NCBI RefSeq assembly: GCF_030013205.1
Contig: NZ_CP122648.1
Length of the DNA stretch: 64,000 bases
Direction: 5' to 3' (one strand)
DNA from: Escherichia coli
Lineage (GTDB): Bacteria; Pseudomonadota; Gammaproteobacteria; Enterobacterales; Enterobacteriaceae
Position 1 is the first letter of the stretch; each line of letters opens with the position of its first letter. This document shows, piece by piece, positions 30,701-36,700 of this stretch. The position numbers are program-made.

Positions 30701-33700
30701 CGAGAGAGGATATGGAAGGGTGGGCTGAGAGAGTGGTTAGAGAGCAATTTACGCATTAAAGGAATGACTGAAAGAGCCTGTAAACCCTTTTGTGTAAGTG
30801 CTTTTGCCGGTCAGTTAAAGGTGGCCATTTAAACGGTCACCAAATTCGATCATAAAACGGTTCATGGCCGGCTTCCAGTTGCGGATCGGCATCGTCCATT
30901 TCTTGGTCGCCGCCTGGATAGCCAGGTACACCACCTTCATCGCTGATTCGTCCGTAGGGAACACCTTGAGTTCATATTAATGGAATTTTCTACAAATAGC
31001 CTCCGTGGTTTTGAGGGGGGATTACAGACGATCCATAGTAGTAATCCAATGAGTTCTTGAGCGCGGCGACATGTTTGGACGCCTTGGCAAAAATTAGAGC
31101 CTGCTTGAAGTGCAGGCGAGCACGTGCTTGGACGATTGATCCATTCGCGGTCAAAAACTCAATCTTGGATGACAGCGTGTCAGGAAATCCAATATCGAAG
31201 TCCCGCCCCGTGTCAAAGTAGGGCATTTCATGATCAAAGGACGAAGCTTCCCAGGCCACTTCCCTAATATTCCAGCCGCTAGAAACAAGATTTCGTACGA
31301 CTTCATCAACTTTTTTGCTTTCCAACTTGTCACAAAGTGCATAGGCAAGAGCTTTGGCGGCAGACACGTGCGTTTCCTCTTAAACATAGGTCGAACGGAT
31401 ACCCGAGGCAAAGCGGAGCATTAGTCCCAAAGCATCTCCGGTAGATCCGGAGGCTCCATACTGAAGGCATGGCATCTTGGGCATTGATATTTGAAACTTC
31501 TCTCTAGATAGCAGGGATTTCTTGGCCTTGCCTCATGCTGATAGCTTGTAAATATCACACGATCCTTAGCCCCACAAAGTGAGCATACTCCGTAGCTTTC
31601 ATTTATAGAAATCGTCGTTAGATTGTCGCAGCATGTGCACGTTCCGACTATTTGCTCAGGAAGCATCGCCATACCTTGGCCTAGGTAAAGAAGATCAGAC
31701 TCGTAGCCACATCGGTGGCAACTGAGCTTGTACGCAATGCCCATCTGGTTGTCTCACCTGAATCGTAACGTCAGAGCTATTCATCCATCCATTCGGCATC
31801 AATGTATGCCACTAAGCCGACCAGCTGACCGTTTGGACTGAAGTATGTTGCCTGCACCCCACTTGACATCTCATCAATACCACCGCACTGCGCTAGGCGC
31901 CGGTCCCACTTGCCCACAGAAGCGTCAGGATCGGCTGAGTTCCCCAAGACCCTTGTGAGCCATGCCTCCTTTAACTCAACCTCTCGAATGATTGCGTCGG
32001 CCAGCTCCTCCGCGTTATCTAGTTCGACATAGTCTGGAATTCGGACGTACGTTCTGAACACAGCTGGATACTTACTTGGGCGATTGTCATACATGACATC
32101 AACAATGTACCCGTTTGTGTAACCGTCTCTTGGAGGTTCGTATGACACTAGTGGTTCCCCTCAGCTTGCGACTAGATGTTGAGGCCTAACATTTTATTAG
32201 AGAGCAGGCTAGTTGCTTAGATACATGATCTTCAGGCCGTTATCTGTCAGGGCAAGCGAAAATTGGCCATTTATGACGACCAATGCCCCGCAGAAGCTCC
32301 CATCTTTGCCGCCATAGACGCCGCGCCCCCCTTTTGGGGTGTAGAACATCCTTTTGCCAGATGTGGAAAAGAAGTTCGTTGTCCCATTGTTGGCAATGAC
32401 GTAGTAGCCGGCGAAAGTGCGAGACCCATTTGCGCTATATATAAGCCTACGATTTCCGTTGCGACTATTGTCGTAATTGGATGAACTATTATCGTAGTTG
32501 CTCTCAGAGTTGTCGTAATTTGATGGACTATTGTCGTAATTGCTTATGGAGTTGTCGTAGTTGCTTGGAGAAATGTCGTAGTTGGATGGGGAGTAGTCAT
32601 AGGGAAGACGAGCTTCATCCACTAAAACAATTGGCAGGTCAGCAAGTGCCTGCCCCGATGCCATCGCAAGTACGAGGCTTAGAACCACCTTCAACAGATC
32701 GCGCATAGTCTTCCCCAGCTCTCTAACGCTTGAGTTAAGCCGCGCCGCGAAGCGGCGTCGGCTTGAACGAATTGTTAGACATTATTTGCCGACTACCTTG
32801 GTGATCTCGCCTTTCACGTAGTGAACAAATTCTTCCAACTGATCTGCGCGCGAGGCCAAGCGATCTTCTTGTCCAAGATAAGCCTGCCTAGCTTCAAGTA
32901 TGACGGGCTGATACTGGGCCGGCAGGCGCTCCATTGCCCAGTCGGCAGCGACATCCTTCGGCGCGATTTTGCCGGTTACTGCGCTGTACCAAATGCGGGA
33001 CAACGTAAGCACTACATTTCGCTCATCGCCAGCCCAGTCGGGCGGCGAGTTCCATAGCGTTAAGGTTTCATTTAGCGCCTCAAATAGATCCTGTTCAGGA
33101 ACCGGATCAAAGAGTTCCTCCGCCGCTGGACCTACCAAGGCAACGCTATGTTCTCTTGCTTTTGTCAGCAAGATAGCCAGATCAATGTCGATCGTGGCTG
33201 GCTCGAAGATACCTGCAAGAATGTCATTGCGCTGCCATTCTCCAAATTGCAGTTCGCGCTTAGCTGGATAACGCCACGGAATGATGTCGTCGTGCACAAC
33301 AATGGTGACTTCTACAGCGCGGAGAATCTCGCTCTCTCCAGGGGAAGCCGAAGTTTCCAAAAGGTCGTTGATCAAAGCTCGCCGCGTTGTTTCATCAAGC
33401 CTTACGGTCACCGTAACCAGCAAATCAATATCACTGTGTGGCTTCAGGCCGCCATCCACTGCGGAGCCGTACAAATGTACGGCCAGCAACGTCGGTTCGA
33501 GATGGCGCTCGATGACGCCAACTACCTCTGATAGTTGAGTCGATACTTCGGCGATCACCGCTTCCCTCATGATGTTTAACGCCTGAATTAAGCCGCGCCG
33601 CGAAGCGGTGTCGGCTTGAATGAATTGTTAGGCGTCATCCTGTGCTCCCGAGAACCAGTACCAGTACATCGCTGTTTCGTTCGAGACTTGAGGTCTAGTT

Positions 33701-36700
33701 TTATACGTGAACAGGTCAATGCCGCCGAGAGTAAAGCCACATTTTGCGTACAAATTGCAGGCAGGTACATTGTTCGTTTGTGTCTCTAATCGTATGCCAA
33801 GGAGCTGTCTGCTTAGTGCCCACTTTTTCGCAAATTCGATGAGACTGTGCGCGACTCCTTTGCCTCGGTGCGTGTGCGACACAACAATGTGTTCGATAGA
33901 GGCTAGATCGTTCCATGTTGAGTTGAGTTCAATCTTCCCGACAAGCTCTTGGTCGATGAATGCGCCATAGCAAGCAGAGTCTTCATCAGAGTCATCATCC
34001 GAGATGTAATCCTTCCGGTAGGGGCTCACACTTCTGGTAGATAGTTCAAAGCCTTGGTCGGATAGGTGCACATCGAACACTTCACGAACAATGAAATGGT
34101 TCTCAGCATCCAATGTTTCCGCCACCTGCTCAGGGATCACCGAAATCTTCATATGACGCCTAACGCCTTGCTCACCGGAAAATTGCGAGCGCAGCGAGTA
34201 ATTTTCGCCGAATGATTCGGTATAGAGTGAAATCGCTTTATCAACAACTACCTTTTCTTTCATACTAAAATTGCCTTCGAGTTTTACGTACAACATTTTA
34301 TTAGTAAGCATGCTCGTTTTGTCACCCGCTGATGCTTACCGTTAATTAATATAATCACTTGTATTAAATAGACTTTCTTTAAAAATACAAGACACTCTGT
34401 TATTACAAATCGTGCATGCCGTCTATCCTGCTTGCACGATGCACATTATCTCACCCAAAGAACTCATAACATTTTAATTTATTTAGCATTAAATTAAAAC
34501 TCTACCGGTAAACAAGCATCTCTAGGCGTAAAAAACAGGCACTTTTTTAAATCCCAGCTAGAATAGGCTGTATAGGCAGACAGTTGCAAGACAAGGAGCG
34601 TTTTATGTCTAACAGTCCATTTTTAAATTCTATACGCACGGATATGCGACAAAAAGGTTATGCGCTGAAAACTGAAAAAACTTACCTGCACTGGATTAAG
34701 CGTTTTATTCTGTTTCACAAAAAACGTCATCCTCAGACCATGGGCAGTGAAGAGGTCAGGCTGTTTTTATCCAGCTTAGCAAACAGCAGACATGTAGCCA
34801 TAAACACGCAGAAAATCGCTTTAAATGCCCTAGCTTTTTTGTACAACAGGTTTTTACAACAGCCGTTGGGCGATATTGATTATATCCCTGCAAGCAAGCC
34901 TAGACGGCTACCCTCTGTTATCTCTGCAAATGAAGTGCAACGCATTTTGCAGGTTATGGATACTCGCAACCAAGTTATTTTTACGCTGCTGTATGGTGCA
35001 GGTTTGCGCATTAATGAATGCTTGCGTTTGCGGGTTAAAGATTTTGATTTTGATAATGGCTGCATCACTGTGCATGACGGTAAGGGTGGGAAAAGCAGAA
35101 ACAGCCTACTGCCCACGCGCCTAATCCCAGCAATAAAATAACTCATTGAGCAAGCGCGGCTTATTCAGCAAGACGACAACTTACAAGGCGTAGGGCCATC
35201 GCTGCCTTTTGCTTTAGATCACAAATACCCTTCTGCTTATCGACAAGCGGCGTGGATGTTTGTCTTTCCCTCCAGCACGCTCTGCAACCACCCGTATAAC
35301 GGCAAATTATGCCGCCATCATCTGCATGACTCCGTTGCGCGAAAGGCATTGAAGGCAGCCGTACAAAAAGCAGGCATCGTTAGCAAGCGTGTCACTTGTC
35401 ATACATTTCGTCACTCGTTTGCTACGCATCTATTACAAGCGGGGCGTGATATTCGCACTGTGCAAGAACTCTTAGGGCATAACGATGTTAAGACCACGCA
35501 AATCTATACGCATGTGTTGGGTCAGCATTTTGCCGGCACCACCAGTCCTGCGGATGGACTGATGCTACTTATCAATCAGTAAAAGTAGATAAATATCTTT
35601 ATGTAGCCCTGAGTAGCCCCTGATACTTTTTATGGTGAAAAAGATAAACAATCATAGAGGGGATAAATATGAGCCAGTTCTACCATTGTTCAGATAAGTT
35701 TAAGCAAGATACTGTCAATCACAGTGACCATTCATGGTCATTACACTTCCTCCAGTTGCCAGACAATGCCTAACATAAAAACGCAAAAGCCCAAAAGTCA
35801 GAGCTTAGGTGTTCTAGGCGTTTTCTAAGCGCTGAAGAAATACGTCTTACCGTAGATTGCGTGCGTTTCTGAAGCACATTTTCCTTATACATGGCTTTAT
35901 CCCAGGCAGCTTCATCAAGCTCTTGGAGTAACAAGCCAGTAATAATGCGACACTCTCGGGTTTGTAGCGAGCCGCTGGTGAGATCGGAGTTATAGCGGAA
36001 AGGGGTCATTTGTAATTATTTGTGGGTGGAGGATAGTTAACTTATTATTGTAGTTGGAAGAGGCTGCTTTCCAAACATTAGCACCTCGTAATGCTTGTTA
36101 CTGTATATTAATTTATGCTCTTAGCGCATGTTAATGGGCTATTACAATGCATAATGTCCACATCAAGATAACTGTGGCTTAACACCTGTACAAGCGAAAA
36201 AAATCAATCACCTGTCCGGAAATACGGGATCACTGTAAAGTGTTGGTGAGGCAGTCTAGGAGGGGGATTTAATTTGGGATACTGATGAAAGGATTATGAT
36301 CAGTTGGATATAGGATCGTACTAAGCTGAGCGGCAGGTTAGCTAGATTAGTTAACCAGATAAGTGAAATCTAGTTCCAAACTATTTTGTCATTTTTAACT
36401 TTCGCGCTAGCTTGCAACACCACACCCAGTTTCCATCTATTTTGTCACTTTTCCCAAAATAACTCTCAAAAACCCCCATTTTCACCCCTCCCAATTCCCA
36501 ACTATTTTGTCCGTCTACAGGGCTGCCGACCGGCGGCCCTTTTTTATAAGTGATATCAATAATTCCATTATTCATATACCCATTGATATAAATATATTCT
36601 GAATTATTGCTAATGTCTGATAATAAACTTGATTTCTTGCTGTTTTAATAATATTTAAATAATAAATTTATATTTAAGATTGAGTAATTAATATTATTTT

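What the first reader, a model, noticed from the sequence alone, without database searches (positions are those of the whole stretch)
33574..34604. Class 2 integron cassette array lacks dfrA1: sat2 is the first cassette
Seen in sequence: only about 450 bp separate the intI2 start (34605) from the sat2 start (34152), with no DHFR-sized ORF. A GTTAGGC core site sits immediately 5' of the sat2 ATG, and attC sites follow sat2 and aadA1. Established knowledge: canonical Tn7 carries dfrA1-sat2-aadA1. Inference: a sat2-aadA1 variant array, so streptothricin and streptomycin/spectinomycin resistance without trimethoprim resistance. The element is about 450 bp shorter than the 14.07-kb Tn7 length I recall. 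The 159 bp upstream of sat2 are open in the sat2 frame and could be an attI2 segment or a cassette remnant.
Basis: partly seen in the sequence, partly recalled or inferred. Interest (0 to 1): 0.45.

Follow-up and report, generated by a model that had tools for sequence, protein, structure and literature searches.

The report
Tn7 integron with deleted estX cassette
This is an ordinary Tn7-type resistance transposon whose first gene cassette is not the usual trimethoprim gene dfrA1 but a 130-base stump of the macrolide-esterase cassette estX, so streptothricin resistance (sat2) is the first working gene.

Summary
dfrA1 is absent, and 452 bp separate the intI2 start (34605) from the sat2 start (34152), against 899 bp in canonical Tn7. 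sat2 does not abut attI2. A 130-bp remnant of the estX cassette (34293..34164) lies between them, left by an 822-bp internal deletion with 1 nt of microhomology at the junction (34205/34204). The parent was therefore an estX-sat2-aadA1 array, which one paper likens to Tn1825. It was not Tn7 that had lost dfrA1.

The deletion removes the EstX catalytic residues, the estX stop codon and the left arm of the estX attC. The estX start codon now reads in frame into sat2, giving a 211-aa ORF. sat2 can no longer be excised as a separate cassette.

That exact 211-aa protein is already in GenBank (ABQ52459.1). The window is identical to E. coli ETEC4079, a pig isolate from Belgium. The junction is found in 1 of 5,426 complete E. 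coli genomes and in none of 72,556 plasmids.

Arrays lacking dfrA1 (estX-sat2-aadA1, sat2-aadA1) are established in the literature. This is a rare deletion derivative of a known element, of low interest. Side note: the outer 122 bp of Tn7L are unusually divergent.

The parts
22899..36519 (-). Whole Tn7-family transposon (13,621 bp) at attTn7 downstream of glmS. Tn7R is at 22899 and Tn7L at 36519, flanked by the 5-bp target duplication GGGCT. The cassettes are read on the - strand; tnsABCDE and intI2 are on the + strand.
   Evidence: Ends and duplication were read. The window is identical to ETEC4079 over 32.5 kb, where RefSeq annotates tnsA-E, glmS and intI2. It is collinear with a 14,067-bp canonical Tn7 except for the first cassette and the Tn7L tip.
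34605..35582 (+). intI2*, the class 2 integron integrase pseudogene with an ochre stop at codon 179 (35139..35141).
   Evidence: Translation gives stops at positions 179 and 326. RefSeq annotates it as 'class 2 integron integrase IntI2, internal stop'.
34294..34604 (-). attI2 / 5' conserved segment carrying the cassette promoters. Pc2A -10 TAAAAT is at 34476..34471. Pc2B -35 TTGTAT is at 34390..34385 and its -10 TTTAAT at 34368..34363, with a 16-nt spacer. The crossover G of GTT is at 34294.
   Evidence: The last 107 bp (34400..34294) are identical in all four array types. Hexamers were read and matched to those given in PMC5559693. Both are the common strong versions, not the V2 variants.
34164..34293 (-). 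130-bp remnant of the 952-bp estX cassette. The 5' piece 34293..34205 holds a 30-nt leader and the first 59 nt of estX (ATG at 34263). The 3' piece 34204..34164 is the last 41 nt of the estX attC, its right arm only. The deletion junction is at 34205/34204, with one shared A.
   Evidence: Alignment to an intact estX-sat2 array. Endpoint mapping shows that bases 3457-4278 of L001 (822 bp) are missing. The 5' piece is 100% identical to the estX cassette of strain LR-46. Residues 1-20 hit NCBIfam EstX.
33628..34263 (-). 211-aa in-frame ORF: EstX residues 1-19, a junction codon (Glu), 17 residues read from the estX attC remnant and the sat2 leader (NYSLRSQFSGEQGVRRH), then the complete Sat2.
   Evidence: Translation. 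The exact sequence is on record as ABQ52459.1 / UniRef100_A5JS98. It was also called as a gene on a Logan contig of SRR30668529.
33628..34152 (-). sat2 coding sequence (174 aa) with its own start codon. The sat2 cassette spans 34163..33580 (584 bp).
   Evidence: NCBIfam NF000358 Sat2, 412 bits against a cut-off of 360, profile positions 1-174. RefSeq product WP_000704156.1.
33574..33633 (-). sat2 attC (60 bp, GCCTAAC...GTTAAAC).
   Evidence: The bottom strand folds at -18.3 kcal/mol, z -4.65, and 0 of 200 shuffles fold as well.
32782..33570 (-). aadA1 coding sequence (262 aa, intact ORF). The cassette spans 33579..32727 and its attC 32780..32721.
   Evidence: NCBIfam AadA1, 591 bits against a cut-off of 587. 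The protein is identical to the aadA1 annotated as intact in L001. The attC folds at -18.4 kcal/mol, z -4.39.
32209..32706 (-). ybeA/orfX, the fixed last 'cassette' of class 2 integrons (165 aa, hypothetical).
   Evidence: ORF. RefSeq lists it as a hypothetical protein in all arrays. It has no NCBIfam match.
36395..36519 (-). Divergent Tn7L tip: 19 substitutions and 1 inserted base against canonical Tn7L, including the terminal change TGTGGGCG to TGTAGACG.
   Evidence: Alignment. Uniqueness was checked.

Best explanation
The locus is a class 2 integron on a Tn7-family transposon sitting at attTn7. Its first cassette was once estX, as in estX-sat2-aadA1 arrays.

**Origin.** A single 822-bp deletion removed the inside of the 952-bp estX cassette. 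The endpoints lie inside estX and inside its attC, with 1 nt of microhomology, and neither is at a core site. This points to illegitimate recombination or replication slippage, not to the integrase. In any case the integrase is dead (ochre stop at codon 179).

**What is left (130 bp).** The remnant holds the estX leader, start codon and 19 codons. These are joined to the last 41 nt of the estX attC.

**Consequences shown by sequence:**
- EstX is gone. Residues Ser102, Asp233 and His261 are all deleted.
- No dfrA1 is present.
- sat2 is 822 bp closer to the intact Pc2A and Pc2B promoters than in the parent array.
- The deletion is 274 codons long and removes the only stop between estX and sat2. 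The estX start is therefore in frame with sat2, giving a 211-aa ORF.
- The estX attC has lost its left arm and no longer folds. Remnant plus sat2 now form one 714-bp unit between attI2 and the sat2 attC.

**Inferred, not shown:**
- Transcription runs from Pc2A/Pc2B.
- Sat2 is made from its own start and probably also as the N-terminally extended 211-aa form.
- The predicted phenotype is streptothricin, streptomycin and spectinomycin resistance, with no trimethoprim or 16-membered-macrolide resistance from this locus.
For: - **Remnant identity:** a four-way alignment shows the remnant is collinear with both ends of estX and differs from the dfrA1 attC.
- **Deletion mapping:** exact endpoints, the 822-bp size and the 1-nt overlap come.
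- **Match to intact estX:** the 5' piece is 100% identical to the LR-46 estX cassette and the 3' piece to the estX|sat2 junction of L001.
- **Protein matches:** residues 1-20 match NCBIfam EstX, and residues 38-211 match Sat2 above its cut-off.
- **attC folding:** the full estX attC folds as a hairpin at -12.7 kcal/mol. The remnant reaches only -5.5 kcal/mol, with an unstructured centroid and z +1.03. The sat2 and aadA1 attC sites fold strongly.
- **Integrase:** stop at codon 179.
- **Promoters:** the Pc2A and Pc2B hexamers are present as defined in PMC5559693.
- **EstX function:** catalytic triad and substrates are from PMC11214618.
- **Not an assembly artefact:** the same 211-aa product is in GenBank as ABQ52459.1 and on a Logan contig.
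- **Fusions occur naturally:** read-through EstX-Sat fusions of 485 and 501 aa use the same linker.
- **Backbone:** otherwise the same as a 14,067-bp Tn7.
Against: - No expression or phenotype data exist. Whether the 211-aa form is made, or is active, is untested.
- RNA folding around the sat2 ribosome-binding site showed no clear gain in accessibility over the other arrays. Mean unpaired probability was 0.32, against 0.18, 0.39 and 0.25.
- The Logan contig is identical to the window, including the odd Tn7L tip. It may be the same strain and so may not be independent.
- I could not see the nucleotide record behind ABQ52459.1. One paper cites that accession for a different protein. I take that as a misprint, but I could not check it.
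- The resistance prediction covers this locus only. Other dfr or macrolide genes may lie elsewhere in the genome.
Confidence: 0.9

Rival explanations
1. Canonical Tn7 lost the dfrA1 cassette by integrase-mediated excision, leaving sat2 directly next to attI2 (a plain sat2-aadA1 array of the Tn1826 type).
For: dfrA1 is absent and sat2 is the first intact gene. Plain sat2-first arrays do exist, in 3 of 5,426 complete E. coli genomes, and are listed in the literature (PMC3053210; PMC2794275).
Against: Clean excision would leave attI2 GTT|AGGC-sat2 with 322-bp spacing, as in p1290_1. The window has 130 extra bases that match estX and not dfrA1 or its attC. The predicted hep74/hep51 amplicon is 1,767 bp, against 1,637 bp for the sat2-first type.
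Confidence: 0.03
2. The 130 bp are a small independent cassette, ORF-less or encoding a short peptide, that was captured upstream of sat2. They are not a deletion remnant.
For: The segment is bounded by GTT core sequences on both sides, and its size is within the range of small cassettes.
Against: Both halves are identical to the two ends of the 952-bp estX cassette, and they join at a point that is not a core site. The segment has no foldable attC: -5.5 kcal/mol, z +1.03. The junction occurs nowhere else among 5,426 E. coli genomes, 72,556 plasmids, 100,044 species genomes or JGI metagenomes.
Confidence: 0.02
3. The deletion is an assembly or sequencing artefact of the ETEC4079 genome, and the strain really carries an intact estX-sat2-aadA1 array.
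For: Only one complete genome carries the junction, and it is the source of the window.
Against: A separate read-set assembly (Logan, SRR30668529) gives the same sequence. An older GenBank protein, ABQ52459.1, has exactly the same fusion across the junction. A clean 822-bp gap in unique sequence is not a typical assembly error.
Confidence: 0.03

Closest known systems
estX-sat2-aadA1-orfX class 2 integron (likened to Tn1825; streptothricin transposon from pig E. coli, GDR, 1980s)
   Same: It shares the attI2, the estX leader and first 19 codons, the estX|sat2 junction, sat2, aadA1, ybeA and the inactive intI2*. It predicts the same streptothricin-streptomycin-spectinomycin phenotype without trimethoprim resistance (PMC5686510; PMC3619534). 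This array is often found in pigs, and the present strain is a pig isolate.
   Different: 822 bp of the estX cassette are missing. There is therefore no EstX esterase and no functional estX attC, and the estX start codon is fused in frame to sat2.
Canonical Tn7 (dfrA1-sat2-aadA1, 14,067 bp)
   Same: The backbone is 99.97% identical from the sat2 cassette to Tn7R, with 4 mismatches in 11,281 bp. It shares the intI2*, the attI2 and the insertion site downstream of glmS.
   Different: The first cassette is a 130-bp estX remnant instead of the 577-bp dfrA1 cassette. The outer 122 bp of Tn7L differ at 20 positions.
sat2-aadA1 array with sat2 directly at attI2 (reported as identical to Tn1826; e.g. 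plasmid p1290_1)
   Same: It has the same two working resistance genes, and sat2 is the first functional gene. PCR-typing surveys could score both arrays as 'sat2-aadA1' if amplicon size were not checked (my inference).
   Different: That array has no estX remnant: 322-bp spacing against 452 bp, and a hep74/hep51 amplicon of 1,637 bp against 1,767 bp. There the short attI2 leader ORF ends on the sat2 ATG (ATGA), whereas here it runs on into sat2.
Read-through EstX-Sat fusion proteins (485 and 501 aa; CAA40157.2 / WP_071846307.1, 'bifunctional putative esterase EstX/streptothricin N-acetyltransferase Sat1')
   Same: The same linker...NYSLRSQFSGEQGVRRH-MKISV..., joins estX-derived sequence to full-length Sat2.
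   Different: Those proteins keep the whole EstX domain and arise by loss of the TAG stop. Here only 19 EstX residues remain, after a deletion.

Membership tests
Class 2 integron | intI2 gene, typically with an ochre stop at codon 179 | tested here: met
   The translation of 34605..35582 has a stop at codon 179. RefSeq annotates it as IntI2 with an internal stop.
Class 2 integron | attI2 with Pc2A/Pc2B promoters between intI2 and the first cassette | tested here: met
   The last 107 bp of attI2 are identical to three other class 2 integrons. Pc2A -10 TAAAAT and Pc2B TTGTAT-N16-TTTAAT are present, as defined in PMC5559693. Promoter activity was not measured.
Class 2 integron | Gene cassettes each ending in a foldable attC | tested here: met
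   The sat2 and aadA1 attC sites fold at -18.3 and -18.4 kcal/mol, z about -4.5. The estX remnant does not meet this feature.
Tn7 family transposon | tnsABCDE genes, TGT...ACA ends, 5-bp target duplication, insertion downstream of glmS | tested here: met
   RefSeq annotates tnsA-E in the identical record. The ends and the GGGCT duplication were read. The Tn7L tip is divergent but keeps the TGT end and the three TnsB-type repeats. Mobility was not tested.
Canonical Tn7 array (dfrA1-sat2-aadA1) | dfrA1 as the first cassette | tested here: not met
   There is no dfrA1 between attI2 and sat2. tblastn finds no DfrA1 hit in the window.
estX-sat2-aadA1 array (Tn1825-like) | Intact estX cassette (952 bp, 280-aa EstX with Ser102/Asp233/His261) as the first cassette | tested here: not met
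   Only 130 bp remain, comprising 19 codons and 41 nt of attC. The catalytic residues named in PMC11214618 are all deleted.
sat2-aadA1 array (Tn1826-like) | sat2 cassette joined directly to the attI2 crossover point | tested here: not met
   130 bp lie between the attI2 GTT and the sat2 cassette, whereas p1290_1 has none. The junction 80-mer of that type matches the window only as two split pieces.
Sat2 streptothricin acetyltransferase | Full-length match above the curated NCBIfam cut-off | tested here: met
   NF000358, 412.3 bits against a cut-off of 360, profile positions 1-174 of 174.
AadA1 ANT(3'')-Ia | Full-length match above the curated NCBIfam cut-off, with an intact ORF | tested here: met
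   NF033126, 591 bits against a cut-off of 587. The 262-aa ORF is identical to the aadA1 annotated as intact in L001. RefSeq nonetheless flags it as 'frameshifted' in this genome.
Functional attC for the estX remnant | Paired R''/L'' and L'/R' arms forming a bottom-strand hairpin | tested here: not met
   The left arm is deleted. The remnant folds at -5.5 kcal/mol, with an unstructured centroid and z +1.03, against -12.7 kcal/mol for the full site.

The most novel reading that the evidence does not exclude
The deletion may be an adaptive 'cassette fusion' and not a neutral scar. It places sat2 next to the Pc2 promoters, lends it the estX translation start, and removes the upstream attC hairpin. 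In this reading the 211-aa EstX'-Sat2 protein is made and raises streptothricin resistance, while the loss of the attC locks sat2 in first position. The same fused ORF turns up both in an older GenBank entry and in a recently sequenced pig isolate, which would fit a variant that persists.
Probability: 0.15. Interest if true: 0.3.

Novelty: new variant of a known kind. Interest (0 to 1): 0.15.

Why it matters
The practical value is small.

- **Resistance prediction:** a Tn7 call in a genome does not guarantee trimethoprim resistance. This strain's element predicts streptothricin, streptomycin and spectinomycin resistance only. It has also lost the EstX tylosin/tilmicosin esterase.
- **Typing:** PCR surveys could score this array as plain 'sat2-aadA1'. 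The 130-bp remnant and the 1,767-bp hep74/hep51 amplicon tell it apart and show descent from the estX lineage found in pigs.
- **Biology:** it is a clear example of a class 2 array changing by ordinary deletion, since its integrase is inactive, and of two cassettes becoming fused into one.

None of this changes what is known about integrons or Tn7.

Tried and rejected
1. **sat2 directly next to attI2:** rejected by alignment.
2. **130 bp derived from dfrA1 or its attC:** rejected. The dfrA1 attC differs across this stretch.
3. **Integrase-made deletion:** rejected. The endpoints (GGCGA|CCCGG and CCGTAA|AAATT) are not at GTT core sites, and intI2 is truncated.
4. **Other copies of the junction:**
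   - Found only in ETEC4079 among complete E. coli genomes.
   - None in PLSDB plasmids.
   - None in 100,044 species genomes.
   - None in JGI metagenomes.
   - The 227-aa version of the ORF is not on record.
5. **RNA accessibility of the sat2 ribosome-binding site in four array contexts:** the differences were small and unordered, so I draw no conclusion.
6. **Literature:** I found no paper describing a deleted or truncated estX in a class 2 integron, and none naming ETEC4079. The older Tn7 and Tn1825/Tn1826 papers are not held. Whether Tn1826 has the remnant therefore rests only on a reported 1,581-bp amplicon, which fits the sat2-first type better.
7. **Source of the divergent Tn7L tip:**
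   - No other match among complete E. coli genomes in a high-identity search.
   - Best plasmid match 89.8%.
   - No exact match to its first 33 nt in species genomes or metagenomes.

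
Full report
**Where the window comes from.** The window matches the chromosome of Escherichia coli ETEC4079 (NZ_CP122643.1; pig faeces, Belgium) with no mismatch over 32.5 kb. A Tn7-family transposon occupies 22899..36519 (13,621 bp). It sits at the classic site just downstream of glmS, flanked by a 5-bp duplication, GGGCT. RefSeq annotates tnsA-E, ybeA and neighbours, aadA1, sat2 and an intI2 pseudogene in the identical record.

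**Checking the observation.**
- intI2 starts at 34605 on the + strand and has the usual stop at codon 179.
- sat2 starts at 34152 on the - strand and matches the curated Sat2 model over its full length, 412 bits against a cut-off of 360.
- The gap between the two starts is 452 bp. The same interval is 899 bp in a canonical Tn7, 1,274 bp in an estX array and 322 bp in an array where sat2 truly comes first.
- No DfrA1 homologue exists anywhere in the window.
- GTTAGGC lies 5 nt before the sat2 ATG.
- The sat2 and aadA1 attC sites are present and fold strongly, at -18.3 and -18.4 kcal/mol with z about -4.5.
- A canonical Tn7 at the same chromosomal site in strain AH01 is exactly 14,067 bp. This element is 446 bp shorter.

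**What lies between attI2 and sat2.** I aligned the window with three other class 2 integrons.
- attI2 is identical in all four up to the crossover GTT, whose G is at 34294.
- In the window, 130 bp (34293..34164) then precede the sat2 cassette.
- The first 89 bp are the start of the estX cassette: a 30-nt leader, the estX ATG at 34263, and 59 nt of coding sequence.
- The last 41 bp are the end of the estX attC.
- Relative to an intact 952-bp estX cassette, 822 bp are missing. The two endpoints share a single A.
- The 5' piece is 100% identical to the estX cassette of strain LR-46. The 3' piece is identical to the estX|sat2 junction of strain HCP17S3_I4.
- The dfrA1 attC differs across this stretch.

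The parent array was therefore estX-sat2-aadA1, not dfrA1-sat2-aadA1. One paper states that the class 2 integron contents it found (dfrA1- and estX-type arrays) resembled those of Tn7 and Tn1825 (PMC3619534). Tn1825 was the streptothricin-streptomycin-spectinomycin resistance transposon seen in pig E. coli after nourseothricin use (PMC5686510).

**How the deletion arose.** Neither endpoint is at a GTT core site, and the integrase gene is truncated. The deletion is best explained as ordinary illegitimate recombination or replication slippage, not cassette excision. The right endpoint lies in the stem of the attC hairpin, which may have favoured slippage. That last point is inference.

**Consequences that the sequence shows.**
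1. EstX is destroyed. Only 19 of its 280 codons remain, and the catalytic Ser102, Asp233 and His261 are gone. EstX hydrolyses tylosin, tilmicosin, tildipirosin and leucomycin A5 (PMC11214618).
2. sat2 is 822 bp closer to the cassette promoters than in the parent. The Pc2A -10 (TAAAAT) and Pc2B (TTGTAT-N16-TTTAAT) elements are the common strong versions (PMC5559693).
3. In estX-sat2 arrays the two genes share a reading frame, and only the estX TAG separates them. Databases hold read-through fusions of 485 and 501 aa. The deletion is 274 codons long and removes that stop. The estX ATG now opens a 211-aa ORF: EstX 1-19, Glu, NYSLRSQFSGEQGVRRH, then the whole of Sat2. sat2 keeps its own start codon.
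4. The estX attC has lost its left arm. The full site folds as a hairpin at -12.7 kcal/mol. The remnant reaches only -5.5 kcal/mol, with an unstructured centroid. Remnant and sat2 are thus one 714-bp unit bounded by attI2 and the sat2 attC.

**What is inferred.** Transcription from Pc2A/Pc2B, production of both Sat2 forms, and the phenotype are predictions. The predicted phenotype is resistance to streptothricin, streptomycin and spectinomycin, with no trimethoprim or 16-membered-macrolide resistance from this locus. A folding comparison of the sat2 ribosome-binding region in four array contexts gave no clear trend. I therefore make no claim that translation is improved.

**How common it is.** Counts among 5,426 complete E. 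coli genomes:

| First-cassette junction | Genomes or records |
|---|---|
| attI2-dfrA1 | 94 genomes |
| attI2-estX, near-identical full-length | 13 records, including this one |
| Direct attI2-sat2 | 3 genomes |
| Deleted-estX junction | 1 genome (the source of the window) |

- The deleted-estX junction is absent from 72,556 plasmids, 100,044 species genomes and JGI metagenomes.
- The exact 211-aa product is nevertheless already in GenBank as ABQ52459.1, 'streptothricin acetyl transferase 2 [Escherichia coli]'.
- It is also on a Logan assembly of SRR30668529.
- That contig is identical to the window, including the unusual Tn7L tip, so it may be the same strain.
- The deletion is therefore real and has been sequenced before. 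I found no paper that describes it.

[quoted passage not shown] A sat2-aadA1 array reported as 'identical to Tn1826' gave a 1,581-bp hep74/hep51 fragment (PMC2794275). In-silico amplicons with those primers:

| Array type | Amplicon (bp) |
|---|---|
| sat2-first | 1,637 |
| This window | 1,767 |
| Canonical Tn7 | 2,214 |
| estX array | 2,589 |

Tn1826 thus fits the sat2-first type better than the window's type. The window is a deletion derivative of the estX lineage that could be scored as 'sat2-aadA1' by PCR typing alone.

**Verdict.** The feature is a rare structural variant of a well-known element, with no new mechanism. Interest is low.

**Side observations.**
- The outer 122 bp of Tn7L carry 19 substitutions and one extra base relative to canonical Tn7L. 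These include the terminal octamer. Only 2 of the changes fall in the three TnsB-type repeats. That pattern looks like an end taken from a diverged relative. No source was found.
- An ATG in attI2 (34311) is translationally linked to the first gene in every array type examined.

Noticed in passing
window 36395..36519 (- strand), the Tn7L tip: The outermost 122 bp or so of Tn7L differ from canonical Tn7L by 19 substitutions and 1 inserted base, including the terminal change TGTGGGCG to TGTAGACG. The rest of the left arm is identical. Only 2 changes fall in the three 22-bp TnsB-type repeats, which suggests an end acquired from a diverged Tn7 relative and not decay. A high-identity search of complete E. 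coli genomes found no other copy. The best plasmid match is 89.8% (a Methylophaga plasmid). The first 33 nt have no exact match in species genomes or metagenomes.
   Followed up: partly
window 34311 (ATG in attI2, - strand); L003, L004, L001 and L006 at the same position: attI2 holds an ATG 17 nt before the cassette crossover, and it is coupled to the first gene in every array seen. With dfrA1 first, a 13-codon leader ends in a TGA that overlaps the dfrA1 GTG. With sat2 first, a 10-codon leader ends in a TGA that overlaps the sat2 ATG. With estX, or here with the remnant, it reads straight on in frame (296 aa and 227 aa). This resembles ORF-11 of class 1 integrons, which I recall from memory.
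   Followed up: no
L001 4238..4331 and cluster proteins P0002, P0004, P0010: In estX-sat2 arrays, estX and sat2 share one reading frame, and only the estX TAG separates them. Public collections hold read-through EstX-Sat fusions of 481 to 501 aa on about 29 contigs. One is named 'bifunctional putative esterase EstX/streptothricin N-acetyltransferase Sat1' (CAA40157.2).
   Followed up: partly
window 32782..33570 (aadA1): RefSeq flags aadA1 as 'frameshifted' (836 bp) in this genome and in two others. The 262-aa ORF is nevertheless intact and identical to the aadA1 annotated as normal in HCP17S3_I4. It only just passes the NCBIfam AadA1 cut-off (591 against 587). The only nearby difference from that record is one base in the sat2 attC (33581, C against A).
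   Followed up: partly
L006 (E. coli LR-46 chromosome, NZ_AP027537.1): This is a four-cassette class 2 array, estX-dfrA1-sat2-aadA1. Its estX leader shares the window's A at 34283, where other estX arrays have C.
   Followed up: partly
hits H203-H221 (6,477-bp E. coli plasmids): Small plasmids of about 6.5 kb carry an estX whose upstream match to the query begins about 30 nt inside attI2, at 91.5% identity. Their estX may therefore have come from a class 2 context.
   Followed up: no
window 35770..36009 (- strand): A 79-aa ORF lies between Tn7L and intI2. RefSeq names it 'BrxA family protein' in all Tn7 copies, yet it has no NCBIfam match at E<=0.001.
   Followed up: no
PMC10846113, resistance-gene table: A paper on fosA11 cites accession ABQ52459 as the beta-lactamase 'SRT-2'. 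The protein collection gives ABQ52459.1 as the 211-aa E. coli streptothricin acetyltransferase. This is probably a misprint in the paper, but I could not verify it.
   Followed up: no
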